Origin: a virus
IMG/VR virus record: IMGVR_UViG_3300045988_169015
Location: 64,001-128,000 of that record
Strand: one strand, 5' to 3'
Length of the DNA: 64,000 nucleotides
How positions within the stretch are numbered: the first letter of the stretch is position 1; every line of letters begins with the position of its first letter. This document shows positions 431-23,402 of this stretch, one piece after another. Below the pieces are notes generated by a model. It searched no databases. It saw nothing but the letters and a program-made list of their open reading frames with translations, and was not told the DNA's origin. The translations under genes and the position numbers were made by a program.

Positions 431-434
431 ATGT

Positions 435-2865: not shown

Positions 2866-2947
2866 GATGACTCCTCCTTGATTTTTAAATTGTAAAATAT
2901 CCAATATGTTTTCGCACTAATAAATAATAGTATAAAAAACATATATT

Positions 2948-5493: not shown

Positions 5494-5570
5494 GTTATCA
5501 CACTCCATATATTATGATAAAGTAGTATATGCTTGTATTTGCTTTATTATAACACATGTTTTCAAATATG

Positions 5571-5987: not shown

Positions 5988-6004
5988 GTTCTCCTTTCAT
6001 AGAA

Positions 6005-9883: not shown

Positions 9884-10209
9884 TCATATGTACCGTCGGC
9901 GCACATTTCATCAAAGGTTTTGACGTTAAGATAGACGCAGTCCCAAGGAGTGCCAAAGTGAGCCACTCCCCATACATAAAGATTCAGTTCATCGCAATAG
10001 TATACAATTTCATCGGTTGCTCTTGCCAAATAATCGGCAAAGCTCTGATCGATAAGATAATACTGATAGATATCGTAATAATAATCATTTTCTTCATCAT
10101 AATCATTACCGCAATAAAGCTCAAGTTCAAGATTCGTGATATTATTGCAGAGAATAAGATTTTCATTTTTAACAAGTTCAGCATAAGATATCTTTTTCAT
10201 GTACGACAC
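9880..10209 (-). CDS. hypothetical acidic protein
   Basis: 109-aa ORF rich in D/E/Y. It is the last gene of the leftward early block. Confidence 0.6.
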   Translation of the reverse strand: MSYMKKISYAELVKNENLILCNNITNLELELYCGNDYDEENDYYYDIYQYYLIDQSFADYLARATDEIVYYCDELNLYVWGVAHFGTPWDCVYLNVKTFDEMCADGTYD

Positions 10210-10379
10210 TCCTCTTTTGTGTTATCAAGTTTCTGAATTGAAATTATGCAGTCCACCTTGACAGATTGCATGAGTTTAACAACAGCATCGGCAGGAGAAA
10301 TTGCAGTTATGGTTTTCTTGATTCCACATCTGAATGATGGGGCTCCGCTATCAAACACGATTATATATTCGTTCATCAT
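10197..10379 (-). CDS. hypothetical protein
   Basis: The ORF track gives 10197..10403. The ATG at 10379 is preceded by AAGGAAGAG. Confidence 0.5.
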   Translation of the reverse strand: MMNEYIIVFDSGAPSFRCGIKKTITAISPADAVVKLMQSVKVDCIISIQKLDNTKEECRT

Positions 10380-10396
10380 TACTCTTCCTTTCCATA

Positions 10397-10663
10397 TTAG
10401 CATTCATCACAATTAGGACAATAGTTAAGATAGAACATCAGGCTAAAACAGTCCGGCTCTAATTCCTGACCATCAAAACAGAATTCCTCATGCTGAATCA
10501 GTTCGTCAAGAATAGCCTCGGCATTTGCTGATATAACCGTCTTACTTGTTCTGAACCTTTTTGCAAGATCATCAAAGTAAAATATGTAATTGCCGGATGT
10601 GGTTTTTGCAGTTCCTGTTTTTATCATGTAATTTGCGATTTCCTTTATGAACTTATTATTCAT
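10397..10663 (-). CDS. hypothetical protein
   Basis: 88-aa ORF overlapping its neighbours by 4 nt. Confidence 0.6.
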   Translation of the reverse strand: MNNKFIKEIANYMIKTGTAKTTSGNYIFYFDDLAKRFRTSKTVISANAEAILDELIQHEEFCFDGQELEPDCFSLMFYLNYCPNCDEC

Positions 10664-10923
10664 ATTGCTGCCTCCATTTCTTTTCTGTACCTCAGCTGAT
10701 CATAAGCCTCGCCTTTTGCAATCAGATTTTCGTATTCCTGCAAATCATAACTCATCGGGCACTCTTTAGTGAATTTCAACCGGGTACCCGAAACGGAGCA
10801 AAAGTATTCTCGATACTCCTTGCCTGTTTTGGATTCCATCATAATGATGGAACGATTCATGCACTCGCTGCACAGTTTCATATCCATAGAAAACATCTCC
10901 TTATTTAAACATATATTTTTCAA
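10660..10923 (-). CDS. hypothetical Cys-containing protein
   Basis: ORF track. An internal ATG at 10887 has better SD spacing (AAGGAG plus 9 nt). Confidence 0.55.
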   Translation of the reverse strand: MKNICLNKEMFSMDMKLCSECMNRSIIMMESKTGKEYREYFCSVSGTRLKFTKECPMSYDLQEYENLIAKGEAYDQLRYRKEMEAAI

Positions 10924-11025
10924 TATGCTTCGTTCACGATTTTACAGTTGTCGGATTGAGAAAGCTCCTCGTTCCGAGCCGTTATCCACAGTCCATGGTG
11001 GGCTGTGCAGAATTTGGCGTGACGA

Positions 11026-11391
11026 TTACTCTTCTTTTATTTCTTCAATTATGATGCCGTACTTTTCAGCAACGGCTCTGTTTATTGTAATCTTCCTACC
11101 TTCGACTTTGAGTATCTGTGCCTGACTGAACCGTCCGACAGTAAAAGTTTTTGTCGTGACGAGCGTTTCATCTTCGTGGATATAATTATCATAGCGAGGA
11201 TCTTCTTTTGTAATATAAAAATTCGTCTGGTTCTTACTGTTATACCCACGATAATCATAACGTTTAAATCCGGTCCAGTAACCCTTTGTGAGATTACATC
11301 CGCAGTATTCACGAAGTTCCTTATACGAGTTGCAGAAGTGGTTATACGATTCGTCGGGAGTTACACATTCGACTTTGTATCTTGTTTTCAT
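11026..11391 (-). CDS. hypothetical protein
   Basis: The ORF track gives 11026..11412. GGAGG precedes the ATG at 11391 (MKTRYKVE). Confidence 0.6.
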   Translation of the reverse strand: MKTRYKVECVTPDESYNHFCNSYKELREYCGCNLTKGYWTGFKRYDYRGYNSKNQTNFYITKEDPRYDNYIHEDETLVTTKTFTVGRFSQAQILKVEGRKITINRAVAEKYGIIIEEIKEE

Positions 11392-11412
11392 TTTTATTCC
11401 TCCGATTATCAT

Positions 11413-11628
11413 TTAGTGTATCTCGTCTTCGTAGAATGGAGTGCCATCCGAATGAAGAATCTGATATACATATAAAGATACAGGTTTATTGATTTCAAAT
11501 AACCGACCATTGATGTTTGCATATATCTTTGTAAATGCTCTTCCTTCTTTTTTTCTTACACATTCGTTGATAAGAGTTTCGGCTTTCTTCGCAGCTTTAC
11601 TAAAATCAAAATCATATACCAGTTTCAT
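11413..11628 (-). CDS. hypothetical protein
   Basis: The ORF track gives 11413..11649. GGAGG precedes the ATG at 11628. Confidence 0.55.
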   Translation of the reverse strand: MKLVYDFDFSKAAKKAETLINECVRKKEGRAFTKIYANINGRLFEINKPVSLYVYQILHSDGTPFYEDEIH

Positions 11629-11645
11629 TTCTACTCCTCCAATCA

Positions 11646-11909
11646 TCAATCGTTCCAGTCAGGCTGGTCACAGTATGTAGTGTTCTCAAAAATCTTTCTC
11701 GCTTTTTGGACGGCTCTTGTTATGGATATTCTCTTTGGAAGTTTGAGCTGAACAGGAGCGAAGCAGCCGTCATAATGGAAGTCGATATTATATATCCACT
11801 GTCCATTTTCGTTTTCGAAATAGTCATAGCTATGAAGAGTTCCGTTCGGCTGATGGCTCCACACATCTGTCAGTTTCTTCATTATCCATTTTGCACCGGG
11901 TTTTATCAT
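11646..11909 (-). CDS. hypothetical protein
   Basis: 87-aa ORF with GGAGG 6 nt upstream of the start. Confidence 0.6.
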   Translation of the reverse strand: MIKPGAKWIMKKLTDVWSHQPNGTLHSYDYFENENGQWIYNIDFHYDGCFAPVQLKLPKRISITRAVQKARKIFENTTYCDQPDWND

Positions 11910-11924
11910 AGGTTGCCTCCTTAC

Positions 11925-12119
11925 TTAATATAGCTCCACATAATGTGTGCCGTCTTCTCTGCGTTCGTAGCCGCCAATCTGTGCAACGATTTCGCACATT
12001 CCGTTATAACAAATCTTGTTGGTTTCATAAGCGGTTCGGTTTGATTTTACTTCTTGCATTATCTGATATCTTAAATTGAGACGTTCAGCAAGTTTCTTTT
12101 CCATCTGTTTCCGTGTCAT
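11925..12119 (-). CDS. hypothetical protein
   Basis: The ORF track gives 11925..12128. The ATG at 12119 has GGAG 9 nt upstream. Confidence 0.5.
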   Translation of the reverse strand: MTRKQMEKKLAERLNLRYQIMQEVKSNRTAYETNKICYNGMCEIVAQIGGYERREDGTHYVELY

Positions 12120-12124
12120 GGTTA

Positions 12125-12397
12125 TCACTCCTCTTCTGCTTTTACAAAATCTTCTCCGTAATAAAGGCTGATATCCAAATCGTAATTATCAGTTACGCCC
12201 CAGCCGTTATGATATCCTTCGTCTCCATCCACAAACCAACACTCAATATCACTCAGGATATCTTCTGTATCGGGGATCATTGTTTCGTCTGCCGTGTCTT
12301 TGCCTGCATCGAGCAGCTCCTTGCGGAACGCCCGACACTCAGCAATGAAGTTATCAACTTTGCGCTTGCCGCTCTCAGTCAGTTTGAAATCGTACAT
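12125..12397 (-). CDS. hypothetical acidic protein
   Basis: 90-aa ORF with the SD GAAAGGAAA. Confidence 0.6.
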   Translation of the reverse strand: MYDFKLTESGKRKVDNFIAECRAFRKELLDAGKDTADETMIPDTEDILSDIECWFVDGDEGYHNGWGVTDNYDLDISLYYGEDFVKAEEE

Positions 12398-12409
12398 ATA
12401 TATTTCCTT

Positions 12410-13063
12410 TCAATTAACATCATTATCATTTGCTTCTTTGAGAATAATGACACCGATATACCAGTTATTTCCTCTTAAATAAATATTTCTGCCTTCATCG
12501 TCCGCAGTATTGATATCCTTTTCGGTAATAAGATCAATGCCTAAATCGTATTTTGTAATTAAGCCATTGATATGCTCGGCTACTTCATCTGAGCCGTCAA
12601 AATAATCGCCTTCGTAATCTTCGTCTTCCCCAATACTCCATTCAACATGGTAATAATCAGTGCCGAACCAACCTATATCATCGGTCATATACAGCCCGCC
12701 GTCCTTCTCCTCGGCTATCCAATGTATGGAAATACGATTATCATAATGCCTTGCGATTATCTCACGCCACATTTTGATCATTGGTATCCATGCTGTTTCG
12801 GCAAAGATATCAAAACTCGACTTATCCTGTCTGTCAGTTACATTTCCGATGTCATCGATCCATCCACGGCAGCGGATAATGTTTTCGGGATTATCGATTC
12901 TGTCGCCGAAGCCGAACCCGATGAGCACATTACCAAGCCAAGGCTCACCAAAGCCTGAAGTTTCTGCATTTGACGATGTGTACTGTACTATCTTATTGTG
13001 CAGATCCGTAAGGTCTGCGAAGTTTCCTGTAAATTCTATTTTAGTAGAACACCAATTAGGCAT
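12410..13063 (-). CDS. DUF1281/Api92-like protein (paralog A)
   Basis: Starts MPNWCSTKIEFTG. It shares ETAW.P, ISxxWxAEE and other blocks with 13610..14209. Confidence 0.6.
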   Translation of the reverse strand: MPNWCSTKIEFTGNFADLTDLHNKIVQYTSSNAETSGFGEPWLGNVLIGFGFGDRIDNPENIIRCRGWIDDIGNVTDRQDKSSFDIFAETAWIPMIKMWREIIARHYDNRISIHWIAEEKDGGLYMTDDIGWFGTDYYHVEWSIGEDEDYEGDYFDGSDEVAEHINGLITKYDLGIDLITEKDINTADDEGRNIYLRGNNWYIGVIILKEANDNDVN

Positions 13064-13077
13064 AATGTTTTCTCCTT

Positions 13078-13242
13078 TCAATCTTCAATATCGTACCCAA
13101 AATGGCAAAATCCAATTAGGTCTGAGATATAATCTCCAATATCTTCTTCGTCAACGTCATCGGGAATTTCAACTTCTGAGGGCAACTCTTCAAAAAGCTT
13201 TTTGTCTCCGTCAGTGTCCCACATAATATTTACTGCTTTCAT
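13078..13242 (-). CDS. small acidic protein (hand-found, 54 aa)
   Basis: The ATG at 13242 is preceded by AAAGGAG. The product is MKAVNIMWDTDGDKKLFEELPSEVEIPDDVDEEDIGDY... It is below the ORF-track length cutoff. Confidence 0.5.
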   Translation of the reverse strand: MKAVNIMWDTDGDKKLFEELPSEVEIPDDVDEEDIGDYISDLIGFCHFGYDIED

Positions 13243-13258
13243 ATCTACATCTCCTTTT

Positions 13259-13492
13259 TCAGTTGCGAAGTTCGTTGATCAGATCCTCATCTCCGTTTTC
13301 CAGAGCGTCGATCGTCTCTAAGTCAAGGCCGAAGCAGAAATCGCTGTCGTCCTCAAAGAACTCGTAGTTTTCGTTAGTATCAATATCGAGCGTCTCTTCT
13401 ATATATTCCAAGACTGCACGTCTCAACTCCTGCGCTCTGTTAAAGCAGTCATAGAATTCTTTTATCATACCATTAAGCTTTGCGTTATCCAT
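13259..13492 (-). CDS. hypothetical strongly acidic protein
   Basis: 77-aa ORF with the SD AAAGGAG. Confidence 0.6.
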   Translation of the reverse strand: MDNAKLNGMIKEFYDCFNRAQELRRAVLEYIEETLDIDTNENYEFFEDDSDFCFGLDLETIDALENGDEDLINELRN

Positions 13493-13609
13493 AATAAAAT
13501 CTCCTTTTCAAATTACAATTTACCAAACTTATCGTCGCTGTTTATCTTTACTCTGAGCTTACCGCCGCTTCTGAGAATGTATTTCCAATTACCCATTACA
13601 AACTCCTCT

Positions 13610-14209
13610 TTAATCAAAATCGCAGGTATCAAACAGTTCAAGCTTGTGAACTGACATAAACCAGTCTTCATTGACTTCAACTGCCACTTCCGCTTCCGCA
13701 AGAGACTTGACAGGCTCAAGTCCTGCTTTTTCAAAAACTCTGTTAACCTCTTTGAGCACCTCTTCTTCTGTGGCGCCGTAGAGGTAATCTGCATCGCTGC
13801 CTATATCGTAGTCAATGCAGTATGTCATGTCGCCAAATTCATTCATGTCGTTTGTGCAGTAGATATCGCAGCCGAACTCCTCTGCGCACCAGCTGAATGA
13901 AATGAGCTGCTCGTCATCTTTGGTATAGCATTTTGCAATTATCGCACTCCATATGCCAAGGCGAGGCGTCCATGCGGTTTCAGTATATATTGTTGCGCAA
14001 TCCCTGTCATATTCGATATCTCCTCTTAATGAGACCTTATCAGGATCGATTCCGAATTCATTGGCGATGTTGCGGAAGCTGCGTCTTTCGCAGTAGCTCA
14101 TATCAGGGTGTGCTTCATCTGAAACAGCGTGCTCGATCCTGTTGAAAAAATCTGTAAGTGCATCATCATTTCCAAAAAATCTTATCTGTGTAGAGCAAAT
14201 GTTAGCCAT
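13610..14209 (-). CDS. DUF1281/Api92-like protein (paralog B)
   Basis: The ORF track gives 13610..14275. GGAGGT precedes the ATG at 14209. The product starts MANICSTQIRFFG. Confidence 0.6.
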   Translation of the reverse strand: MANICSTQIRFFGNDDALTDFFNRIEHAVSDEAHPDMSYCERRSFRNIANEFGIDPDKVSLRGDIEYDRDCATIYTETAWTPRLGIWSAIIAKCYTKDDEQLISFSWCAEEFGCDIYCTNDMNEFGDMTYCIDYDIGSDADYLYGATEEEVLKEVNRVFEKAGLEPVKSLAEAEVAVEVNEDWFMSVHKLELFDTCDFD

Positions 14210-14268
14210 AATAGTTACCTCCAAATTCCATAAGCAGATAATCATAAAAACTTTTATCAGTGGTTGAA

Positions 14269-14493
14269 TTACCATGTAATGCGTTTGGGTATAAATTCAA
14301 TTTCTGCATTGCTATATGCAGTTATACAGTCTATCGGTGTATCAGGTTCGCCATCGAAATTTTGATATTTTGTGCATATTTTTGGCTCATGATCTTTGCG
14401 AGGATCAACATCAACAAATAACTTTCCGTTTTCGTTTTTATAAACGGGTCTGTTGTAACTGTCGTTTCCAATATAAATTAATGTTATTCTCAT
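14269..14493 (-). CDS. hypothetical protein
   Basis: GGAGG lies 8 nt upstream of the ATG at 14493 (MRITLIYIG). Confidence 0.55.
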   Translation of the reverse strand: MRITLIYIGNDSYNRPVYKNENGKLFVDVDPRKDHEPKICTKYQNFDGEPDTPIDCITAYSNAEIEFIPKRITW

Positions 14494-14570
14494 CAAAAAA
14501 TCCTCCTATCAAATGTGAATTTTACTATCTTTTTCATTATTTATAACCTCCATTAAACAATTATTTTGTT

Positions 14571-14579
14571 TTGCAATTA
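14571..14579 (-). promoter_or_regulatory. TAAYTGCAA box
   Basis: The minus strand reads TAATTGCAAAAC, followed about 25 nt later by GGAGG and an ATG. Confidence 0.45.
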
Positions 14580-15672
14580 GCATAACAAGATGTTTTCTAC
14601 AAAGGTTTAGATGTATTGGAGGAGAGTGTCCGTGACACCCGCTGATAAGCGGGGTGTAACTGGACTGATCGCCTCCTATAGTACAAAGCTATTATGCTGA
14701 TTGCAGTTATCAAAACCGAGCCTGGCGGCAATTTACTAAAACAGTTTAGATATGAGGGATCTGAAACGTCGGGCACTTGTCAGGTATGAATAGTGCCCGT
14801 CGGTGTAAGATCCCGAAATGCAGTTTGCCAAACTCGGTTATGCAGCCGGAATATCCATGGTATCGCTAAAGGAATTTAGATATGAACCTTCTGAAAGAAG
14901 AGTCATCGACGCTTCAATCAACGAAGTTGATTGAGGGTCATCGACTCATCTTTCGAAGGTGCAGTGCATATTGGATATCACGGTTACTGAATTTAATTGA
15001 AGTGCTTATTGTATTGCTGAAAGATTTTTAGATACAATGTCGTGGGTGCATCTTGAAGCTCGCACGTTTGCGAGCGGTTTTGTGATGATTCTCAATGACA
15101 TTATTGCATTTAAGGTGCTGCAATTATTTATATATATTTCCTGACCGCCGAATTTTCGCTAAAAGCATTTAGATAACATGTATCACGGAGATGAGAAACA
15201 TCCAGCAGTGTGCTGGATGGCTCTCATCTGAGGGATTACATGTTTGCATTAGGACGGACAGAAATCAGATCAGCAATTTCCGGCAGCAGTTGTTCGCTAA
15301 ATTGATTTAGATAATACCATCTTGTCTGAGGAAAGAGTACTGGGAGTGTCCCAGTACATTTCTTCGGACCAGATGCGTATTTGCATTTTGCCGCCGGGAA
15401 TTAAGAAATCATAACACCGAATTGTCGCTAAAGTAATTTAGATATAAAGAATCACGACAGCGGCGTGAAGCGATGGGTGACGCATCACGAGCGCCGAGGG
15501 AGGGATTATTGATTGCATTTTGTGTTATGAATTAGGAATTATTCGGCTTGTGGAAACATATGCTTACTAAAGATATTTAGATAAGAGGCAGCATAAACGA
15601 TCTCGAACTCTGGAGGTCTCCAGGATGAGAAGATCGTGTTGCTGCGGACTTGAATGTTGTTTCCGCAAGTCG
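14579..15672 (+). ncRNA. tandem array of eight ~120-133 nt three-way-junction RNA-like units (U1-U8), unassigned family
   Basis: Unit coordinates: U1 14579-14698, U2 14714-14839, U3 14851-14978, U4 14994-15126, U5 15137-15264, U6 15277-15400, U7 15409-15530, U8 15544-15672. Each unit has four parts: a closing helix P1 of unit-specific sequence, an invariant mini-hairpin CTAAA-N4-TTTAG followed by AT, a long unit-specific hairpin P3, and a junction that usually contains TGCA. No ORFs are present. G-U pairs favour the plus strand. Confidence 0.6.
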
Positions 15673-15680
15673 TTTTGCAG

Positions 15681-15983
15681 TTAGTGATTTGCCGCTATAG
15701 CGTCCAGCTCAGATTGGAATTCGGACACAACATATTCGGCGTCGTAATGCCACTGCTCATCGTTGTTTCTGCAGTCCTCATACATGTCTAATATGTCACG
15801 CCAAAGTTCCTGATTTGCAGTTACCTTTTCCTGCGTCTGAGCGCCATACTCTTCTTCGATAGTCATCGCCATATCTTCTGCGTTGTATTCACTCTTGACG
15901 AATTTATAAACATCGAAAGCATCGTAAGAACTAAGCACTGTGCCGTTGACAACGTATTCGCCATTACTGTTTCGTGTTACCAT
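15681..15983 (-). CDS. hypothetical acidic protein
   Basis: 100-aa ORF with GGAGG 7 nt upstream. Its stop codon is the TAA of a TAACTGCAA box. Confidence 0.65.
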   Translation of the reverse strand: MVTRNSNGEYVVNGTVLSSYDAFDVYKFVKSEYNAEDMAMTIEEEYGAQTQEKVTANQELWRDILDMYEDCRNNDEQWHYDAEYVVSEFQSELDAIAANH

Positions 15984-16016
15984 ATGTATTCCTCCGTTAC
16001 AATTATAATAGTATAA

Positions 16017-16143
16017 CTCTCAGCCGCAGCGATTTACTAAAACCATTTAGATTAAGAGTCCGTGATTTACGAGCATCGTACGGGAGTGATAACTGTCGTC
16101 GATGCTTATAAATCCGGATGATATGCACTTTGCTGACTGAGAG
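16017..16143 (+). ncRNA. ninth unit (U9) of the same RNA-like family
   Basis: P1 is CTCTCAG..CAGC / GCTG.CTGAGAG. P2 is CTAAA-ACCA-TTTAG-AT (16037-16052). A long hairpin follows. The unit is followed by TTTGCAGTTATTTTTTTATT. Confidence 0.55.
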
Positions 16144-16158
16144 TTTGCAGTTATTTTT

Positions 16159-16989
16159 TTATTCCATATTCGCAAAAGGATCGCTGAGGCTGATGTAGTT
16201 TTCCGCCATAGAAACCTTAAGTGCCTTATAGAAATAGTAGTCGGGTGACTGAATCTCGAGTCTGAGTTTTCTGAGGGCATTCTCTCTGGTGTAAACTTCA
16301 TCGAACCAGTGAAGAATAAATCTTCCGTCAAACATGATATAGTTTTTGAGAGTATAATAAGCGCCAGCCTTCTTGAAGCTGCGAATAAACGCATCAGCAA
16401 GCTCGTGGTTCTTGAAGTATCTGCCGCCCTTCATGCCTGTGCCTTCGGGGATATCAAACGCTCTCTTTGCAATTACCAGTTCAATAGCCTCTGCAATTAC
16501 AGCGAAGTCTGAGTATGACCAAGCGGTATTTATAAGGCTCTGAAGACTGGGCTGGAACTCCTTAGCGAAGTTCATAAATATATCGGCGATGCTATTCACA
16601 TCAAAGAAATGCTTGCGCTCTTCAAATGCAACGGGGTCGTTATCTTTGAGGTGAGCCAGCAGCTTAGCTTCCTTACAGGTATAGAGGATACTGTACTTAT
16701 AGGTATAGAAATTTGCGATTACCTGATTGATACTTGTGGTGACACTCTCCTGTCTCATAAGTCTAATGAACTGAGCGGAGATCCAACGTCTTGTTGTTCT
16801 GGGGTTATAGACTTCGCCGCAGATCGTCTTGCCAAAATACTTACCGTGCGCAGGAATTGAGTTATCATTGTCGGCAGGGATTGGAGTATTAGCCATATCG
16901 AGCATTGACTTTGCCACCAGTTTTGCGAACTCATTCATATCGAGGTTGCTGTTGTTAAGGTTAACGTTGTTCGTGTTGTTGTTAGTCAT
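16159..16989 (-). CDS. hypothetical protein (RT-module neighbour)
   Basis: 276-aa ORF with the SD AAAGGAG and an Asn-rich N-terminus. Confidence 0.7.
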   Translation of the reverse strand: MTNNNTNNVNLNNSNLDMNEFAKLVAKSMLDMANTPIPADNDNSIPAHGKYFGKTICGEVYNPRTTRRWISAQFIRLMRQESVTTSINQVIANFYTYKYSILYTCKEAKLLAHLKDNDPVAFEERKHFFDVNSIADIFMNFAKEFQPSLQSLINTAWSYSDFAVIAEAIELVIAKRAFDIPEGTGMKGGRYFKNHELADAFIRSFKKAGAYYTLKNYIMFDGRFILHWFDEVYTRENALRKLRLEIQSPDYYFYKALKVSMAENYISLSDPFANME

Positions 16990-17032
16990 AATAAATTTCT
17001 CCTTTTAATATGTATGGTTTATGGTTTTCGGG

Positions 17033-17476
17033 TTACTGGATATAGCTGCGATAGATTATGAAACTATCGGTCAGTTTACGGAACCAGCCGGGCGTTTCCC
17101 ATTTAAGGGTACCGTTAAGACTTCCGATTATAATAGCGGCACAAAGCTTTGCGTGCATTACATCTCGGTTATCGTTACGGTAAAAGTCGGTCATGCTCAG
17201 CTCATCGGCAGACAGAGGTTTAAACAGGTAAGTCTTGCGGCTGTTCTCACTGCTCGGTGACGAATGAATAAAGTTCTCGTAAAGAGTTACCAGATCGTCA
17301 TAGCCGGACACAGGAGACCCCAACGAGTCGATAACTTCGCCGCCTATCATATCAGCTACAAGCTTGCCGTTTTCCATTACGACACGCTTATCTATTCTGA
17401 TATTCTTTTTGACCAGATCGAACCTGAGCTTATGCCCCGATTCTGATTTTGCAATTAACGCATCATACAGCGTCAT
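17033..17476 (-). CDS. hypothetical protein (RT-module neighbour)
   Basis: The ORF track gives 17033..17485. The ATG at 17476 has GGAG 9 nt upstream. It overlaps the end of the RT gene by 14 nt. Confidence 0.65.
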   Translation of the reverse strand: MTLYDALIAKSESGHKLRFDLVKKNIRIDKRVVMENGKLVADMIGGEVIDSLGSPVSGYDDLVTLYENFIHSSPSSENSRKTYLFKPLSADELSMTDFYRNDNRDVMHAKLCAAIIIGSLNGTLKWETPGWFRKLTDSFIIYRSYIQ

Positions 17477-18842
17477 GTATAACACCTCCTTTTATTTTGT
17501 TTATCTCGCTCAGCCAGAGTTCGTGGTCGGTATGATAGACTTTGTACATATGATTAAGGCTGTACCAACCGGCAGCCCTTACCATATCTATTCCGTCTGC
17601 CACAGTCCTTTTCCTGTTGGCTTTAACGTTTATTCCTTTCTGGAACTGGATCGTGTAATTGGGGTTATTATCTGTAGAACCGAGACCCCAAACCTTATTG
17701 CGACCTGTTATCACTGCTCTTAAACAATCTTTACAATACCTGTCTATCATGTCGATATCATGTTTGCAGTTAACGGTTCCGAACAGATACTGACACATGC
17801 CGAACTGGTTGCTGTTCTCTTCATATGCAAGGAACAGATACCTCTGGAGCCGCCTGCATATCCGCTTGGTCTCCGCTTCGGTAGCCGGTCTTTTGTGTTC
17901 TCTGCTCCACTGTATCGTTTCAGATTTTATATGCTGCTCGATACCTCTGAGAGTTTTTGCAGACACAGTTATCAAGTCGCCACGTATCTTAAAGCCCAGA
18001 AACTCGAACCAGTCTTTATCTGCCTGTAACGCTTTGACCTTTTTGGGATTAAGAGTTACACCCTTTGGTTCGAGCATCTGCTTTATAACTTCGAGGGCGT
18101 GGTCAGCTTCCCTGCCGAGGATTATGATATCGTCAGAATAGCGATAATAGATAACATCCATATTACTTATGGTCTCATCTATATCTCTCAAGCACAGGTC
18201 AGCCAGCAGACAGGCGATAGGATTGCCCTGACTTAGTGATTTATATCTGTATTCGGGTTTTCCGTTTATGATTATAGTATCGTCGTGATAATGTTTAATT
18301 ACTATGTTATCGATACAATCCTTATCGGGAGTTATGATATCGAGTGTTCTGTCAAGCGTTTCACGATTTACGGTATCAAAGAACTTGCTCAGGTCAAGCT
18401 TGTATCCTTTGTACCATTTCTTACGGTTCATCTCACTGACAAGAGCCTTTACGGTCTTGCCGGCTGACAGTCCCCTGCGGTAAGAAACGCAGTTAGGATG
18501 TATCAGGTGGTGAAAATCGTCGTAATACATCTTATAGAATGTATTGCACAGAACTCGGTCAAACGTTTCGAGAACTGCAAGCTTGCGGACTTCTTCAAAG
18601 TTTCGCTTCTCTGCTTCGGCGAATGTCAACCAGTTGTCTGTAAGCTTGTCAATGTACATCTCTACAGGGGCTTTGAACTCGATTTTGCAATTAGCGATAA
18701 GGTCGCCTGCAAGAGCCCACGCTGCATCTTGCGAAAACGTGGACAGCACGCACATATCGAGTCCCTTGCGGTCGATGTGCAAAAGCGCTCTTTCATGCAG
18801 CTCTCGGTCGTTCACAAACCGTTCAAGTTTATTCGGTTTCAT
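17463..18842 (-). CDS. reverse transcriptase, group-II-intron-like (RT plus maturase/thumb-like C-terminus), free-standing
   Basis: Motifs seen in order: DRVLCNTFY, SYRRGLSAGK, KLDLSKFFDTV, LSQGNPIACLLADLCL, YYRYSDDIIILG, GVTLNPKKVK and FEFLGFKI. A thumb-like LQRYLF...IDRYCKDCLRAV and AAGWYSLNHMY follow. Confidence 0.85.
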   Translation of the reverse strand: MKPNKLERFVNDRELHERALLHIDRKGLDMCVLSTFSQDAAWALAGDLIANCKIEFKAPVEMYIDKLTDNWLTFAEAEKRNFEEVRKLAVLETFDRVLCNTFYKMYYDDFHHLIHPNCVSYRRGLSAGKTVKALVSEMNRKKWYKGYKLDLSKFFDTVNRETLDRTLDIITPDKDCIDNIVIKHYHDDTIIINGKPEYRYKSLSQGNPIACLLADLCLRDIDETISNMDVIYYRYSDDIIILGREADHALEVIKQMLEPKGVTLNPKKVKALQADKDWFEFLGFKIRGDLITVSAKTLRGIEQHIKSETIQWSREHKRPATEAETKRICRRLQRYLFLAYEENSNQFGMCQYLFGTVNCKHDIDMIDRYCKDCLRAVITGRNKVWGLGSTDNNPNYTIQFQKGINVKANRKRTVADGIDMVRAAGWYSLNHMYKVYHTDHELWLSEINKIKGGVIHDAV

Positions 18843-18958
18843 TTATCTCTTCTCCTTTCCGATTATTCTTATTACAGTTATCAGTTCATCGTCATACAGA
18901 TAACATTCGCAGTCATCTCCATGACGGCATGATGTTGTCCCCTTGTCATCATATACAG

Positions 18959-19126
18959 TTATTCTTCTTCCACCTCCCAAGTATCTGTTTCTGCATCGTC
19001 AAGATAGAGATTACAGTTATTATAAAATGATTTCTCTGCCGCTTTCACCGCTGCATCTTTATTTTCAGCTTCGATGTGAAGCGTTGTATATCCAGTTACT
19101 AAAAGTGTTACACTGTACTTCTTCAT
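18959..19126 (-). CDS. small hypothetical protein (hand-found, 55 aa)
   Basis: The ATG at 19126 is preceded by GGAGG. The product is MKKYSVTLLVTGYTTLHIEAENKDAAVKAAEKSFYNN... Confidence 0.5.
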   Translation of the reverse strand: MKKYSVTLLVTGYTTLHIEAENKDAAVKAAEKSFYNNCNLYLDDAETDTWEVEEE

Positions 19127-19371
19127 TTATAAGCCTCCTCTACTGTATATGTAACGATGTTACCGTCGGTCAGACTTATTGTTTTCAGATTCTCCCTTTC
19201 GTCGCACGTTTCATCTACGTGTATGTGAAGGTTGTCATATTCCAATAAGTCAAGGCAGTATGCCCTCTGCAGTTCTTCAACTGCGGTATCATAATCATCG
19301 CAGAGCTGAACAAGAAGTATGCCGTCATAAGCACTGCGAATAATTACAGCATAACCTATCTGATTCATCAC
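19123..19371 (-). CDS. hypothetical protein
   Basis: 82-aa ORF with the SD AAGGAG upstream. Confidence 0.6.
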   Translation of the reverse strand: MMNQIGYAVIIRSAYDGILLVQLCDDYDTAVEELQRAYCLDLLEYDNLHIHVDETCDERENLKTISLTDGNIVTYTVEEAYK

Positions 19372-19374
19372 CTA

Positions 19375-19548
19375 TCACTTCTCCTTTATAGATATGATTA
19401 CATTTTTCCTAACCTTGAAATTATCGAAAACGAATAACATCTTTGTTTCCTTTTCAAATTTTCCGGTTAGAATAACGTCGCACGTCACCAGCGGTTTCGT
19501 ATGGACTTTTATTCTTTTGGTTATTTCATATGACTGACCTATGTTCAT
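19375..19548 (-). CDS. small hypothetical protein (hand-found, 57 aa)
   Basis: The ATG at 19548 is preceded by TAACTGCAAAAGGAGAACGAGA (box plus SD). Confidence 0.5.
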   Translation of the reverse strand: MNIGQSYEITKRIKVHTKPLVTCDVILTGKFEKETKMLFVFDNFKVRKNVIISIKEK

Positions 19549-19561
19549 TCTCGTTCTCCTT

Positions 19562-19570
19562 TTGCAGTTA
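19562..19570 (-). promoter_or_regulatory. TAAYTGCAA box
   Basis: The minus strand reads TAACTGCAAAAGGAG. The TAA is the stop codon of the upstream gene, and the box abuts the SD of the next gene. Confidence 0.45.
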
Positions 19571-20143
19571 CGGTCTTAATGACCACTTGACTGTTTTGAT
19601 AAATGTTTCCTCAAAATAGTTATCGAGGCCGAAGCGATAGTTATTATAGACTTCTTTCATATCGCTCTTACTGAACCCGGTTTCGTCAAGGATATCTTCT
19701 ATACCGTCGCTGCCGTAAAAACCGCCACAGCTGTATAATGGCCCATCGAATTCATACAAGGTGTACCCGTACACCTCGCCGCTCGCATACTGATTGAGTG
19801 CCTCTATTTCGCCCTGCAAAACTGTTTTCGCAGTTGCAATTGTAGAATCGTCAACCTTTCCGTATTCTTTTTCGATCTCATCATAGGTGACATAGATAAG
19901 ACCGCATATTCCGCTGTCCCATCTGTCGCCAAAATCCGAAAGTGAAAATGTTACTCCGCTATGTACGTAAGCATACACAGGATACTGAACTCTTTTGATA
20001 CCGGAAAGTGCAGTTGTCAGCTCCTGAAATGATTTGTAGTTATGCTTGTCTCCGTAAGCTCTTGTATCTCTTCCAAAGAGAATCAGATGTCCGAGACTGT
20101 CCCATTCTCTCGGTGATTCGCAGTCGTAATCTTTATAAATCAC
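19568..20143 (-). CDS. hypothetical protein
   Basis: 191-aa ORF with a GTG start, coupled to an 18-codon upstream mini-ORF. Confidence 0.65.
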   Translation of the reverse strand: MIYKDYDCESPREWDSLGHLILFGRDTRAYGDKHNYKSFQELTTALSGIKRVQYPVYAYVHSGVTFSLSDFGDRWDSGICGLIYVTYDEIEKEYGKVDDSTIATAKTVLQGEIEALNQYASGEVYGYTLYEFDGPLYSCGGFYGSDGIEDILDETGFSKSDMKEVYNNYRFGLDNYFEETFIKTVKWSLRP

Positions 20144-20211
20144 AAGAGTGTTTTACCTTTTGTACCTACCATAACAATTTCATTATTGCATACCATATTG
20201 AATGCCTCCTA

Positions 20212-20913
20212 TTACCACCAAGGACAAAATACTGTCTTGCCATTTTCCCATTTTTCCAAAAACTCTTCACTTAAACCACCTGTCTTACATAAGGTCTCTA
20301 TTACCCTCTCGTCTCCACAATAAGAACAATTTTCCGGAAGTGCATCCCAACCCGCATCTGTCAATCCCTTACGCTGATAACAAATCTCTTCAAGATTTAC
20401 AACATAAACCACCTCATACTGCTCCACTATGTATTTACCGTTATATTTTCGTCCGCCACTTTCTGTGAAACTATTTTCGAAAATTACCTCTGCTTTGTAT
20501 GTAGCAGTTTCAACATCCTCTTCCTTTAATTCCACATTACATTTTATTGCAAAGCCATCATCTTGCTGTACAACAGTTGAATTGCCTGTTTTCACTTTAT
20601 AGTCTTTCTTAATGGTTATGTATAGCATATTAACTGTTTGATTATCACAATATTTTACACCACCATATTTAGATGTTATAACCATATCGCTTGTAAGACC
20701 CATAACATCTATAAGTATCTGCTTGATCTCTATATACCATTTCTTTATTTCACCTTTTACTAAATACTCTTTATATGGAAATGCAATATATTCCTCTTCG
20801 TTAAATAAGACCAGTCCATCTTCTTCTCGGGTATAAATCTCATCTTCCGTTAAACTAAAACCCTCTGCTATATCAGGTTTACTTACTTCATATAAATACA
20901 TATCAAGTCCCAT
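20212..20913 (-). CDS. hypothetical protein
   Basis: 233-aa ORF with the SD AAAGGAG. Confidence 0.7.
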   Translation of the reverse strand: MGLDMYLYEVSKPDIAEGFSLTEDEIYTREEDGLVLFNEEEYIAFPYKEYLVKGEIKKWYIEIKQILIDVMGLTSDMVITSKYGGVKYCDNQTVNMLYITIKKDYKVKTGNSTVVQQDDGFAIKCNVELKEEDVETATYKAEVIFENSFTESGGRKYNGKYIVEQYEVVYVVNLEEICYQRKGLTDAGWDALPENCSYCGDERVIETLCKTGGLSEEFLEKWENGKTVFCPWW

Positions 20914-20933
20914 AGGTATTTTCTCCTTTCAAA

Positions 20934-21293
20934 TTATACAATAGCCCATGTCACACCGTGATAAACATCATTAAGGGTACAGATGGGTACGTAAAGTATT
21001 TCTGCATTATCCCAAGATTTAAGTTCATTTTCTTCGATAACTCTAATTTTTAAACGCAAGTCAAAATAATCGGCTACGTCTCCAACATCATCAGCTTTAC
21101 CCCACCATATCGCTTTGCGAAGTTGATAAGCAGCTGAAAGATATTTTACAATTCCATCACGAAACAATGGATAATTGTCATTGATATTAAATTCACCATC
21201 GTTATTTGTTATCTGTTCTATCAGATACTGTCCGAGACCGTTAAGCTCTCTACCAAAATCATTATCGTGCAGAGTTATTTCAAGATACTTCAT
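20934..21293 (-). CDS. hypothetical protein
   Basis: The ORF track gives 20934..21374. GGAGG precedes the ATG at 21293. Confidence 0.6.
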   Translation of the reverse strand: MKYLEITLHDNDFGRELNGLGQYLIEQITNNDGEFNINDNYPLFRDGIVKYLSAAYQLRKAIWWGKADDVGDVADYFDLRLKIRVIEENELKSWDNAEILYVPICTLNDVYHGVTWAIV

Positions 21294-21307
21294 TTGCAGT
21301 CCTCCTT

Positions 21308-21709
21308 TTATGCAGTTCTTATCAGTCCGCCGAACATCGGTGTCACTCCAATGCTTCCCATATCGGAACACCATTCGTCGTCGAGGTTTATAACCATTGC
21401 AATAGGGTAGCCTGCTTTGATATCCTTGTTATCCATTTCCCATTCCTCTTCATACTGACTTACAAACAGCATAGAAAAGCAGCGCCCGAAATGTGTCGGG
21501 GTATAAATGGCGTGATATACAAGTGCATTGTGCTCGGCTTCAAATTTTTCGATTATCTTCTGTTCATCTTCATTTGCCCAGTAGAGAGCACCCATCTGCT
21601 TGCTGACGTTTACTCTCCCCTGCTTTAAGTCTGCGATTGTGTTTTTATGAAGCTTCAGTGCTTTCATTCTTTCGATTGCTTCTGTGAGCTGCTGTTCTTT
21701 TGTTACCAT
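21308..21709 (-). CDS. hypothetical protein
   Basis: The ORF track gives 21308..21736. GGAGG precedes the ATG at 21709. Confidence 0.6.
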   Translation of the reverse strand: MVTKEQQLTEAIERMKALKLHKNTIADLKQGRVNVSKQMGALYWANEDEQKIIEKFEAEHNALVYHAIYTPTHFGRCFSMLFVSQYEEEWEMDNKDIKAGYPIAMVINLDDEWCSDMGSIGVTPMFGGLIRTA

Positions 21710-21780
21710 AATAATTTCCTCCTTACTCGGTTTCAATAAGATTTACAATGAGCATAATAATCGCAATTACAAAACTCAAA

Positions 21781-21990: not shown

Positions 21991-21997
21991 CACTCCT

Positions 21998-23380: not shown

Positions 23381-23402
23381 TTTCCTCCATTAAATTATTT
23401 GA

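What the first reader, a model, noticed from the sequence alone, without database searches (positions are those of the whole stretch)
14579..16163. Tandem array of nine ~125-nt structured RNA-like units with conserved architecture but unit-specific sequence
There are nine units of 120-133 nt separated by linkers of only 8-15 nt. U9 is offset by a 100-aa ORF.

All units share one architecture:
(1) A closing helix P1 of 6-15 bp whose sequence differs in every unit. Examples are U7 TCATAACAC/GTGTTATGA, U8 CGGCTTGTGGAAACA/TGTTTCCGCAAGTCG, U6 TTTCCGGCAGCA/TGCCGCCGGGAA and U3 ATATCCA/TGGATAT.
(2) A U-rich joiner ending in UUYR.
(3) An invariant mini-hairpin CUAAA-N4-UUUAG with variable loop bases, followed by AU.
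(4) A 60-85 nt imperfect hairpin P3 that is entirely different in each unit. For example, U6 has 10, 11 and 9 bp segments.
(5) A joiner containing UGCA in 7 of 9 units.

Because the helices are maintained with unrelated sequences, selection appears to act on structure.

G-U pairs occur in the plus-strand fold: two in U6 P3, two in U8 P1, one in U4 P2 and one or more in U9. On the minus strand they would be C-A mismatches. The RNA is therefore probably plus-strand, antisense to every flanking gene. U9 ends in TTTGCAGTTATTTTTTTATT, which looks terminator-like.

The layout (closing inverted repeat, small hairpin, long hairpin) is formally retron-ncRNA-like, and a reverse transcriptase gene lies 1.3 kb away. 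However, that gene is on the other strand and is not of the retron class. The short linkers resemble polycistronic tRNA-like precursors. I know of no described family with this design.
Basis: seen in the sequence. Interest (0 to 1): 0.9.

Follow-up and report, generated by a model that had tools for sequence, protein, structure and literature searches.

The report
Phage UG27 reverse-transcriptase template RNA array
The nine structured repeats are real and are most likely the template RNAs of a phage reverse-transcriptase system (UG27) encoded next to them, each predicted to be copied into a short DNA hairpin; this kind of array was first described in a September 2026 preprint, so this is a new example and not a new kind of element.

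Summary
Nine ~122-131-nt units lie at 14579-16146. Each has a unit-specific closing helix, a unit-specific 60-85-nt hairpin and a shared 16-nt motif that occurs nowhere else in the window.

The interpretation needs correcting. The next two genes are the two UG27 accessory proteins. The array lies directly downstream of them on the same (minus) strand.

Read on the minus strand, each unit is: base stem, U(G/U)CA, central hairpin, AUCUAAA-N4-UUNAG, base stem. This is a variant of the UG27 ncRNA unit (UUYA, hairpin, AUC-N7-UANAG) described in bioRxiv 10.64898/2026.09.22.753630. That preprint showed RT-dependent 50-100-nt cDNA hairpins in five other systems.

Five other UG27 lineages, including the cultured Bacteroides phage BS-TP1, carry such arrays in the RT-sense orientation.

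The G-U argument for the plus strand is a composition effect. Folding z-scores are equal on both strands, and the same bias occurs in every UG27 array tested.

The mini-hairpin is not conserved in the sister clade, so it is a sequence motif and not a conserved helix.

New here: a motif variant, and central hairpins that vary strongly between near-identical phages. Biological function remains unknown.

The parts
17463..18842 (-). Reverse transcriptase, UG27 group (class 2 UG/Abi), 459 aa, YSDD active site
   Evidence: PADLOC RT_UG27 E 5.1e-86, 287 bits, profile positions 65-416 of 420; the next best model is RT_UG26 at 9e-47. Pfam RVT_1 E 3e-21. The YYRYSDD motif is present in the translation.
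17033..17485 (-). Small UG27 accessory protein (cluster 346, called 'sORF' in the preprint), 150 aa
   Evidence: PADLOC RTas346 E 7.1e-18, profile positions 2-144 of 147. Homologues lie downstream of the RT in L006, L016, L018, L025, L028, L030 and L031.
16159..16989 (-). Large UG27 accessory protein (cluster 337, called 'bORF' in the preprint), 276 aa
   Evidence: PADLOC RTas337 E 1.1e-20; best stretch is residues 57-150. Homologues lie next to UG27 RTs in L005, L015, L016, L018, L020, L031 and L033.
16016..16146 (-). Unit U9, the first unit in RT-sense order. 3' motif at 16037-16052; predicted cDNA template 16050-16127.
   Evidence: Minus-strand fold -46.8 kcal/mol, z -5.6. Predicted 78-nt cDNA hairpin, DNA z -5.2. 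The stem sequence is swapped in L003 and L004 while the hairpin is kept.
15681..15983 (-). 100-aa ORF embedded between U9 and U8. It has a strong GGAGG ribosome-binding site. Function unknown.
   Evidence: ORF list. It is 93% identical at protein level in L003, L004 and L152 only. No hit in Pfam, PHROGs, NCBIfam or PADLOC.
15544..15672 (-). Unit U8. 3' motif at 15567-15582. Its 5' motif is UUCA, the canonical UUYA. Predicted cDNA template 15580-15654.
   Evidence: Minus-strand fold -41.1 kcal/mol, z -5.6. Motif read. cDNA fold.
15409..15530 (-). Unit U7. 3' motif at 15428-15443; predicted cDNA template 15441-15517.
   Evidence: Minus-strand fold -30.6 kcal/mol, z -3.6. The predicted cDNA hairpin is weak, z -1.6.
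15275..15402 (-). Unit U6. 3' motif at 15297-15312; predicted cDNA template 15310-15385.
   Evidence: Minus-strand fold -49.3 kcal/mol, z -7.2. The hairpin is 79.5% identical to those of L003 and L004, with compensation.
15138..15264 (-). Unit U5. 3' motif at 15159-15174; predicted cDNA template 15172-15248.
   Evidence: Minus-strand fold -50.6 kcal/mol, z -7.8. cDNA z -6.5.
14996..15122 (-). Unit U4, with a 17-nt motif variant AUCUAAAAAUCUUUCAG at 15017-15033. It looks partly degenerate in this phage. Predicted cDNA template 15031-15108.
   Evidence: z is only -1.9 on the minus strand and -1.6 on the plus strand. The orthologous U4 central-hairpin regions fold at -42.3 (L003) and -40.7 (L004) kcal/mol, against -19.7 here.
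14850..14980 (-). Unit U3. 3' motif at 14866-14881; predicted cDNA template 14879-14963. The sequence around the hairpin tip reads C-UUCG-G on the minus strand.
   Evidence: Minus-strand fold -46.6 kcal/mol, z -6.7. cDNA z -7.0.
14713..14840 (-). Unit U2. 3' motif at 14736-14751; predicted cDNA template 14749-14822.
   Evidence: Minus-strand fold -50.4 kcal/mol, z -6.8. cDNA z -6.1.
14579..14706 (-). Unit U1, the last unit in RT-sense order. Motif variant AUCUAAACCUUUGUAG at 14597-14612, and no UGCA. Predicted cDNA template about 14610-14685.
   Evidence: Minus-strand fold -39.9 kcal/mol, z -4.7. cDNA z -6.3.

Best explanation
The array is the non-coding RNA template array of a phage-encoded UG27 reverse-transcriptase system.

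Layout (shown). The minus strand carries, in order: RT (17463-18842), small accessory gene (17033-17485), large accessory gene (16159-16989), unit U9, a 100-aa ORF, then units U8 to U1.

Transcription (inferred). The units are transcribed on the minus strand together with, or just downstream of, these genes.

Fold (shown by folding). Each ~125-130-nt unit has a unit-specific base stem and a unit-specific 60-85-nt central hairpin. Between them is an asymmetric internal loop. Its 5' side carries U(G/U)CA. Its 3' side carries AUCUAAA-N4-UUNAG-YRAA.

cDNA synthesis (inferred from experiments on five other UG27 systems in bioRxiv 10.64898/2026.09.22.753630). The RT, together with both accessory proteins, starts DNA synthesis at the AUC immediately 3' of the central hairpin, copies the hairpin, and stops just past the 5' motif. 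This would release nine different single-stranded DNA hairpins of about 74-85 nt. Their sequence is that of the window's plus strand (GAT...TGCA).

Function (unknown). What the DNA hairpins do is not known for the family either. The central hairpins of U9, U4 and U6 differ strongly between phages whose protein genes are 94-99% identical, and they remain hairpins. The hairpin sequence is therefore probably a fast-evolving specificity determinant, for instance in phage-host conflict. This last step is speculation.
For: - Proteins: RT_UG27 E 5.1e-86, RTas346 7.1e-18, RTas337 1.1e-20, in three consecutive minus-strand genes ending 13 nt from U9. YSDD active site.
- Phage context: large terminase, portal and 7 tRNAs.
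- Architecture: 9 of 9 units have AUC directly after the central hairpin (0-14 nt by the parse, 0-6 in eight units), a shared 3' motif, and a base stem and central hairpin of unrelated sequence.
- Literature: the preprint describes UG27 arrays of structurally conserved, sequence-diverse units of ~135, 149 or 167 nt. It reports cDNA starting at AUC within AUC-N7-UANAG and ending after UUYA, 50-100-nt products, a requirement for all three proteins, and extra units in neighbouring intergenic regions. Whole loci were cloned behind one T7 promoter, which implies that the RNA is RT-sense.
- Independent loci with the same layout on the RT-sense strand: L005/L059/L144 (UUCA, hairpin, AUCUAAA-N4-UWAAG), L076, L023 and L027 (exact AUC-N7-UANAG), and Bacteroides phage BS-TP1 (8 units, AUC-N8-UA(A/C)AG).
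- A profile built only from the sister-clade 3' motif ranks 8 array units among its top 10 hits in the 64-kb window, all on the minus strand.
- Compensation: 11 double compensatory changes in central hairpins between orthologues. Complete stem swaps occur in U9, U4 and U6, with fold energies of their central-hairpin regions between -28 and -42 kcal/mol except U4 of this window at -19.7.
- Predicted cDNAs of 74-85 nt fold as DNA hairpins, with z at or below -3.2 in 7 of 9.
Against: - No transcript or cDNA data exist for this locus.
- The published covariance models are not available, so formal family membership of the RNA could not be scored.
- The literal published motifs are not met. The 3' motif is AUC-N8-UUNAG, not AUC-N7-UANAG. 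The 5' motif is UGCA in 7 units, UUCA in only 1, and absent in U1.
- A profile built from the more distant canonical loci does not detect the units.
- Absolute fold energies are lower on the plus strand in 8 of 9 units. One helix (P1 of U8) keeps pairing only on the plus strand across orthologues.
- No promoter or terminator could be assigned to either strand.
- U4 is poorly folded in this phage.
Confidence: 0.85

Rival explanations
1. The array is a plus-strand polycistronic structured RNA, antisense to all flanking genes. It works independently of the RT, for example as a processed set of small RNAs bound by a protein at the CUAAA-N4-UUUAGAU hairpin.
For: - Plus-strand minimum free energies are lower in 8 of 9 units.
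- The two motif variants (CUGAA...UUUAG in U4, and in U9 of L004) and P1 of U8 keep pairing as G.U only on the plus strand.
- U9 is followed by a T-rich stretch on the plus strand.
- The exact 16-mer upstream of U9 on the plus strand (15994-16009) recurs at 815-830 in gene-sense orientation.
Against: - Shuffled sequences are also 3-9 kcal/mol more stable on that strand. Folding z-scores are equal. The same composition bias is seen in BS-TP1, L023 and L027, where the motif orientation matches the experimentally mapped RNA strand.
- Orthologue substitutions give A.C and G.U states equally.
- The variable position of the 'hairpin' coincides with the N of the family motif U(A/U)NAG. The sister clade cannot form the hairpin on either strand.
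- The invariant 'AU' after the hairpin has no role in this model, but it is part of the AUC start site on the minus strand.
- The model ignores the adjacent three-gene UG27 module.
Confidence: 0.08
2. The array is a multi-copy retron: each unit is an msr-msd RNA that yields branched msDNA.
For: The topology is the same: closing inverted repeat, short element, long hairpin that serves as template. The RT gives a weak match to a retron model.
Against: - The RT scores 43.7 bits against retron_St85 (cut-off 235) but 287 bits against UG27.
- There are nine units downstream of the RT, not one upstream.
- There are two UG27-specific accessory genes and no retron effector.
- The published UG27 products were recovered and mapped as short ssDNAs; no RNA branch is reported.
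Confidence: 0.02
3. The array is CRISPR-like, or a set of repeat mimics (an RNA anti-CRISPR). In this reading CUAAA-N4-UUUAGAU imitates the Cas12a crRNA 5' handle (UCUAC-N4-GUAGAU) and the hairpins stabilise decoy RNAs.
For: The only support is a resemblance recalled from memory between the plus-strand motif and the Cas12a repeat stem-loop ending in AGAU.
Against: - No cas-like gene is present in the window. The largest ORFs have no Pfam domain, and no RuvC, Cas or TnpB hit was found.
- Only about 16-20 nt are conserved, and the 'spacers' are 100-nt structured helices.
- The hairpin is lost in the sister clade.
- The motif orientation follows the RT in all loci.
Confidence: 0.02
4. The array is decayed promoter/terminator cassettes, a diversity-generating retroelement (DGR) template, or selfish repeats with no RNA function.
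For: A few hairpins are followed by T-rich tails.
Against: - Promoter-like and terminator-like counts are within the shuffle expectation.
- There is no template/variable repeat pair of the DGR kind, and the RT is not of the DGR class.
- Compensatory evolution and conservation of the motif across clades with 33-39% RT identity argue for function.
Confidence: 0.02

Closest known systems
UG27 reverse-transcriptase ncRNA arrays (Li et al., bioRxiv 10.64898/2026.09.22.753630, 24 Sep 2026; an ncRNA in these loci was predicted by Mestre et al. 2022, PMC9226505)
   Same: - Three-gene module: UG27 RT plus the cluster 346 and cluster 337 proteins.
- Phage location.
- Tandem array of sequence-diverse units, each with a base stem, an asymmetric internal loop and a central hairpin.
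- AUC directly 3' of the hairpin.
- Unit size near the ~135-nt class reported to lack the pseudoknot.
- An extra unit in a neighbouring intergenic region.
- Predicted products within the 50-100-nt range.
   Different: - The 3' motif is AUCUAAA-N4-UUNAG (spacing 8, U in place of A). In this clade it is self-complementary.
- The 5' motif is UGCA in 7 of 9 units, not UUYA.
- A 100-aa ORF is embedded in the array.
- No experimental data exist for this locus, and the published models could not be run.
Retron msr-msd non-coding RNA
   Same: Closing inverted repeat, and a long hairpin that is reverse-transcribed into a short ssDNA by a dedicated RT that recognises the RNA structure.
   Different: A different RT clade. 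One ncRNA lies upstream of the RT, whereas here nine lie downstream. Retrons prime from a branching G and give branched msDNA, and they pair with effector proteins in bacterial defence. Here the element is phage-borne and has two unrelated accessory proteins.
Other class 2 UG/Abi systems with ncRNA templates (DRT2, DRT9)
   Same: Related RTs (weak PADLOC hits) that use a neighbouring structured ncRNA as template.
   Different: According to the preprint's summary, other class 2 Unknown Group RTs give long or concatemeric cDNA from nearby RNA templates. From my own knowledge, DRT2 and DRT9 are bacterial defence systems that each use a single ncRNA. UG27 gives many short discrete hairpins and shows no enrichment in defence islands.
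Cas12a crRNA repeat and RNA anti-CRISPRs
   Same: A short stem-loop ending in AGAU, repeated in tandem on a phage (plus-strand reading only).
   Different: No cas genes, no repeat-spacer organisation, and the hairpin is not conserved in relatives. The resemblance is recalled from memory, not tested.

Membership tests
UG27 RT system with ncRNA array | The reverse transcriptase belongs to the UG27 group (class 2 UG/Abi). | tested here: met
   PADLOC RT_UG27 E 5.1e-86, 287 bits, near full length; the runner-up is UG26 at 9e-47. YSDD motif present.
UG27 RT system with ncRNA array | An adjacent small accessory protein (cluster 346, sORF). | tested here: met
   17033-17485 matches RTas346 at E 7.1e-18, profile positions 2-144 of 147.
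UG27 RT system with ncRNA array | An adjacent large accessory protein (cluster 337, bORF). | tested here: met
   16159-16989 matches RTas337 at E 1.1e-20. Two stretches match; the best covers residues 57-150, so coverage is partial.
UG27 RT system with ncRNA array | The system is encoded in a phage or prophage. | tested here: met
   Large terminase 57087-58850, portal 58857-60332, tRNA nucleotidyltransferase and 7 tRNAs. Orthologues are IMG/VR viral contigs.
UG27 RT system with ncRNA array | A tandem array of ~135-167-nt units. Each has a base stem, an asymmetric internal loop and a central hairpin, and the unit sequences are diverse. | tested here: met
   Nine units of 122-131 nt with unit-specific helices; z -3.6 to -7.8 in 8 of 9 on the minus strand.
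UG27 RT system with ncRNA array | 3' internal-loop motif AUC-N7-UANAG, with AUC abutting the central hairpin. | tested here: inconclusive
   AUC and the terminal AG are present in 9 of 9 units. However, the spacing is 8 (9 in U4), the pentamer is UUUAG, UUCAG or UGUAG, and the literal pattern matches 0 of 9. Spacing 8 also occurs in BS-TP1. An intermediate form, AUCUAAA-N4-U(U/A)AAG, occurs in L005, L059, L144 and L076.
UG27 RT system with ncRNA array | 5' internal-loop motif UUYA before the central hairpin. | tested here: inconclusive
   The literal UUCA occurs only in U8. UGCA occurs in 7 of 9 units and U1 has neither. The sister clades have UUCA or UUUA at the same place.
UG27 RT system with ncRNA array | The units lie on the RT-sense strand. 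| tested here: met
   The motif orientation is RT-sense here and in L005, L144, L076, L023, L027 and BS-TP1. Actual transcription was not testable.
UG27 RT system with ncRNA array | A significant hit to the published covariance models (with or without pseudoknot). | not testable with these tools
   The models and supplements are not held. Rfam 15 has no such family and gave no hit. My own covariance model could not be built, because MAFFT cannot align the unrelated helices.
UG27 RT system with ncRNA array | RT-dependent 50-100-nt ssDNA copied from each central hairpin. | not testable with these tools
   Prediction only: 74-85-nt products with plus-strand sequence.
Retron | A retron-clade RT. 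| tested here: not met
   retron_St85_RT scores 43.7 bits against a cut-off of 235. PADLOC retron-type RT models reach only about E 1e-11 to 1e-12, against 5e-86 for UG27.
Retron | A single msr-msd ncRNA immediately upstream of the RT. | tested here: not met
   Nine units lie downstream of the RT and the accessory genes. The stretch upstream of the RT holds small ORFs with ribosome-binding sites.
Retron | A 2'-5' branched msDNA primed from a conserved G next to the closing repeat. | not testable with these tools
   This needs biochemistry.
CRISPR array or Cas12a-repeat mimic | An associated cas gene or a matching host repeat, and a repeat-spacer organisation. | tested here: not met
   No Cas, RuvC or TnpB domain was found in the large ORFs. 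Only a 16-20-nt motif is shared, and the 100-nt 'spacers' are structured.
Diversity-generating retroelement | A template repeat / variable repeat pair near a DGR-type RT. | tested here: not met
   No direct repeat of 30 nt or more was found in 10000-24000 apart from the unit motif and one weak chance pair. The RT is UG27, not DGR.

The most novel reading that the evidence does not exclude
The central hairpins may be the fast-evolving specificity determinants of the system. In three phages whose RT, accessory and neighbouring genes are 94-99% identical, the hairpins of U9, U4 and U6 are only 61-80% identical between at least two of the phages (U6 is identical in L003 and L004). They have been rewritten with full compensation. 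The U9 base is kept in all three phages, and its apical loop GUUAUCAC in two of them (the window and L004).

Across all UG27 arrays tested, the template strand is G-poor, so the cDNA is the G+T-rich strand, which folds better in absolute energy.

Together these points suggest that selection acts on the shape and sequence of the DNA hairpin products in a phage-host arms race, for example as decoys or inhibitors of host nucleic-acid-sensing defences. They also suggest that this clade's self-complementary start motif (AUCUAAA-N4-UUUAG, with UGCA) is a distinct recognition variant.
Probability: 0.3. Interest if true: 0.75.

Novelty: new member of a known kind. Interest (0 to 1): 0.45.

Why it matters
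UG27 is the one UG/Abi reverse-transcriptase group that lives mainly in gut phages rather than in bacterial defence islands. Its biological role is unknown.

This locus adds three things:
- A clean nine-unit example of the short unit class, which by size fits the ~135-nt class the preprint describes as lacking the pseudoknot, with variant start and stop motifs. That helps to define what the RT complex actually recognises.
- Three near-identical phages in which individual hairpins have been rewritten. This is a natural experiment on which parts of a unit are constrained (base stem, loop motifs, sometimes the apical loop) and which are free or diversifying (the stem sequence).
- A cautionary result: in this family G.U-based strand calls mislead, because the template RNA is G-poor.

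It also flags a cultured phage-host pair (BS-TP1 and Bacteroides salyersiae) in which the function could be tested genetically.

Tried and rejected
- Rfam, at permissive threshold on the region and at gathering threshold on the whole window: only tRNAs.
- blastn of the locus against GenBank phages: no match.
- Strand test by G.U versus A.C, first with a strand-symmetric hairpin dynamic programme, then with orthologue substitutions: no usable signal. The energy asymmetry turned out to be compositional.
- Covariance model: MAFFT alignments of 29 and of 15 units align the motifs but not the unrelated helices. The column-pair consensus was noise, so no model was built. A sequence profile (nhmmer) was used instead. 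The sister-clade profile finds the units; the profile from distant canonical loci does not.
- Metagenome pattern scan: 118 loci, mostly short-period tandem repeats or repeat proteins. Only L059, L076, L085, L144 and L152 are true arrays.
- Generic 'hairpin + ATC-N7/8-T(A/T/G)NAG' detector across all RT loci: too noisy to map arrays in the L006-L019 clade.
- P0072 contigs: a Bacteroidota chromosomal RT of another type, not pursued.
- Candidate extra units upstream of the RT (about 19150-19400): they lie in small ORFs with ribosome-binding sites, so judged chance.
- DGR repeats: none.
- Cas-like proteins: none.
- Complementarity of the hairpins to the rest of the window, and of two hairpin cores to IMG/VR: none beyond orthologues.
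- Promoter and terminator scan: no enrichment on either strand.

Full report
**Observation.** The region contains nine copies of a 16-nt motif. On the plus strand it reads CTAAA-N4-TTTAGAT. Eight copies match with at most one mismatch, against 0.97 expected by chance, and none of 100 shuffles reaches 8. All lie between 14597 and 16052. The ninth copy, in U4, is a 17-nt variant. Using the closing helices as borders, the units are U1 14579-14706, U2 14713-14840, U3 14850-14980, U4 14996-15122, U5 15138-15264, U6 15275-15402, U7 15409-15530, U8 15544-15672 and U9 16016-16146. They are 122-131 nt long with linkers of 6-15 nt. U9 is separated from the rest by a 100-aa minus-strand ORF. Most units fold into closing helix, small hairpin and long hairpin (U5 differs around the motif; U4 lacks the closing helix). 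Eight of nine fold far better than dinucleotide shuffles on either strand (z -3.2 to -9.0); U4 is weak. Outside the motif the units share no sequence.

**Context.** All genes around the array are on the minus strand. The three immediately 'upstream' in that orientation form a recognisable module:
- 17463-18842 is a reverse transcriptase that matches PADLOC's RT_UG27 model almost end to end (E 5.1e-86). The next best model is UG26 at 9e-47, and retron, DRT and group II models are far weaker.
- 17033-17485 matches RTas346.
- 16159-16989 matches RTas337. These are the two 'RT-associated' clusters that Mestre et al. 2022 linked to UG27.

The RT has the YSDD active site. The window is a phage genome, with large terminase, portal, tRNA nucleotidyltransferase and seven tRNAs. 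A contig from a human gut metagenome is almost identical over U7-U1 (L085).

**Literature.** Mestre et al. (PMC9226505) reported that UG27 RTs are mostly encoded in human-gut phages of Bacteroidetes and Firmicutes. They reported that UG27 shows no defence-island enrichment, and they predicted a structured ncRNA in the locus. A preprint of 24 Sep 2026 (bioRxiv 10.64898/2026.09.22.753630) shows that UG27 loci carry variable arrays of structurally conserved but sequence-diverse ncRNA units. Unit lengths cluster around 149 and 167 nt, with a ~135-nt class lacking a pseudoknot. Each unit has a base hairpin, an asymmetric internal loop with short conserved motifs, and a central stem. Some loci have extra units in neighbouring intergenic regions. 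In five systems expressed in E. coli, the RT and both accessory proteins produce 50-100-nt ssDNA. Synthesis starts at the AUC of an AUC-N7-UANAG motif, copies the central hairpin and stops after a UUYA motif on the other side. The function of these cDNAs is unknown, and no complementarity to phage or host genomes was seen. Whole loci were cloned behind a single T7 promoter, so the RNA is RT-sense.

**Fit of the window to that description.** Read on the minus strand, every unit is: base stem, AA(U/C)UGCA(A/U), central hairpin, AUCUAAA-N4-UUNAG-YRAA, base stem. AUC follows the hairpin directly in 9 of 9 units. The pentamer is UUUAG in seven units, UUCAG in U4 and UGUAG in U1. The position that varies is therefore the 'N' of the published U-A-N-A-G. 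The 5' motif is UGCA in seven units, the canonical UUCA in U8, and absent in U1. The literal published patterns are thus not met: the spacing is 8 where the preprint gives 7, there is a U where it has A, and G replaces U in UUYA.

The gap is bridged by relatives:
- The sister clade L005/L059/L144 (RT 39-43% identical) and L076 (33%) have UUCA or UUUA, a hairpin, then AUCUAAA-N4-U(U/A)AAG-RGAAA.
- L023 and L027 have exact AUC-N7-UANAG with UUCA or UUUA.
- The cultured Bacteroides phage BS-TP1 has eight units with AUC-N8-UA(A/C)AG in an unannotated 1.35-kb gap right after its RT.

In all of these loci the motif is on the RT-sense strand, next to the RT or the accessory genes. A profile built only from the sister-clade 3' motif places eight of the window's units among its ten best hits in 64 kb, all on the minus strand. 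Individual E-values are weak (0.13-7.6) because the motif is short. A profile from the distant canonical loci does not find them.

**Strand.** Plus-strand energies are indeed lower in 8 of 9 units. However, shuffled sequences are lower by the same amount, and z-scores are equal (means about -5.5 and -5.8). The same asymmetry appears in every UG27 array I tested, including BS-TP1, L023 and L027. Shuffled means there are 1.5-9 kcal/mol lower on the antisense strand (3 or more in all but L144). In the window, BS-TP1 and L005 arrays the RT-sense strand has C>G, while the neighbouring genes have G>C; in L023 C and G are about equal. Between orthologous arrays, single substitutions in helices produce A.C states (30) and G.U states (28) equally often. 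Folding therefore carries no strand information here. The strand is assigned from motif orientation and from the published mapping. A residual doubt remains: P1 of U8 stays paired only on the plus strand in the orthologues, and no promoter or terminator could be assigned.

**The mini-hairpin.** CUAAA/UUUAG can pair in this clade, and RNAfold draws it in most units. The sister clade's U(U/A)AAG cannot pair on either strand, and the general family motif leaves those positions free. It is best seen as a protein-recognised sequence motif that happens to be self-complementary here. Whether the pairing matters in this clade is open.

**Evidence for selection on structure.** Two IMG/VR phages (L003 and L004) have RT, sORF, bORF and ORF100 genes 94-99% identical in DNA to the window. 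Their U9 and U4 central hairpins are only 62-79% identical to the window's, and U6 is 79.5% identical. Each version still folds into a stable hairpin; the central-hairpin regions fold at -28 to -42 kcal/mol, except the window's U4 at -19.7, which looks partly decayed. In U9, the window and L004 keep the base and the apical loop GUUAUCAC but have entirely different stem sequences. Eleven double compensatory changes were counted in central hairpins.

**Predicted products.** If the published start and stop rules hold, the cDNAs have plus-strand sequence and span 14610-14685, 14749-14822, 14879-14963, 15031-15108, 15172-15248, 15310-15385, 15441-15517, 15580-15654 and 16050-16127. They would be 74-85 nt long. 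Seven of nine fold as DNA hairpins with z at or below -3.2. No 13-mer or longer match links the hairpins to the rest of the window, apart from one 13-mer at the edge of U9. Two hairpin cores occur nowhere else in IMG/VR apart from the orthologues.

**Alternatives.**
- A retron is excluded by RT class and by layout.
- A DGR is excluded by the lack of a template/variable repeat pair.
- A Cas12a-repeat mimic is only a remembered resemblance, with no cas gene present and no conservation of the hairpin.
- Promoter/terminator debris does not explain the compensation or the cross-clade motif conservation.

**Verdict.** The array is real. It is most likely the template-RNA array of a UG27 reverse-transcriptase system, transcribed on the minus strand, and a member of a class first described in September 2026. 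It is a new member of a known kind, with variant loop motifs and informative hairpin hypervariability. The biological role of the DNA hairpins remains the open question.

Noticed in passing
L160 (Bacteroides phage BS-TP1, PQ571274.1) 3797-6409; record coordinates 79351-81962: This cultured phage of Bacteroides salyersiae BG8 has a UG27-like RT (gp79) annotated as 'tail protein'. It is followed by an unannotated 1.35-kb gap. The gap holds eight ~140-180-nt units with UUYA, a hairpin and AUC-N8-UA(A/C)AG on the RT-sense strand. This would be a tractable model for the family.
   Followed up: partly
window 14579-16146; L160 5060-6409; L005 8357-8916: On the RT-sense strand these UG27 arrays have C>G (window 0.249 vs 0.176), while the neighbouring genes have G>C; in L023 C and G are about equal. 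Shuffled sequences are 1.5-9 kcal/mol more stable on the antisense (cDNA-sense) strand in every locus tested (3 or more in all but L144). The template RNA is G-poor and the cDNA is G+T-rich.
   Followed up: partly
window U9 16016-16146, U4 14996-15122 and U6 15275-15402, compared with L003 and L004: These central hairpins are 61-80% identical between phages, except that U6 is identical in L003 and L004. The protein genes of the same phages are 94-99% identical. The stems have been rewritten with full compensation. U4 of this window looks partly degenerate (-19.7 kcal/mol, against -42.3 in L003 and -40.7 in L004).
   Followed up: yes
apical loops of central hairpins: window U9 (about 16083-16090) and U1 (about 14643-14650); L005, L059, L144, L023: Many apical loops contain UAUC(A) on the RT-sense strand: 2 of 9 in the window and about 9 of 13 in the L005/L059/L144 clade. 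The same trinucleotide, AUC, marks the cDNA start site. No enrichment statistic was computed.
   Followed up: no
window 15681-15983 (-): A 100-aa ORF with a strong GGAGG ribosome-binding site sits inside the array between U9 and U8. Among the fetched loci it is found only in the orthologous arrays L003, L004 and L152, and it has no family hit in any library.
   Followed up: partly
window 815-830 (-) and 15994-16009 (+): The exact 16-mer CCGTTACAATTATAAT occurs twice. One copy lies just upstream of U9 on the plus strand. The other is in gene-sense orientation downstream of tRNA-Asn. It contains TATAAT and might be a regulatory element. It is the only hint of a plus-strand promoter near the array.
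   Followed up: partly
window about 700-880 (-): Between tRNA-Asn and the next tRNAs lies a GC-rich stretch with CUGAUGAG...CUGACGAGG, which recalls the core of a small ribozyme or structured RNA. There is no Rfam hit at gathering threshold.
   Followed up: no
window 216-3023 (-), 55214-55288 (+), 40646-41986 (+): The phage carries seven tRNA genes (three Leu, plus Asn, Gln, Lys and Glu) and a tRNA nucleotidyltransferase homologue.
   Followed up: no
metagenome loci such as L055, L067, L072, L080, L097, L117 (period about 41-42 nt) and L039, L046, L083, L102, L137 (period about 62-65 nt): The pattern ATCTAAA-N4-TWWAG also recurs in short-period tandem arrays in environmental metagenomes. These are unrelated to UG27 units and were not examined.
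   Followed up: no
L157-L159 (contigs encoding P0072): A 400-aa RT (29% identical to the window RT) lies in Bacteroidota chromosomal contexts next to SusC/SusD genes. It is preceded by a 204-aa gene and, upstream of that gene, about 1.1 kb without called genes. It may be another ncRNA-associated UG-type RT.
   Followed up: no
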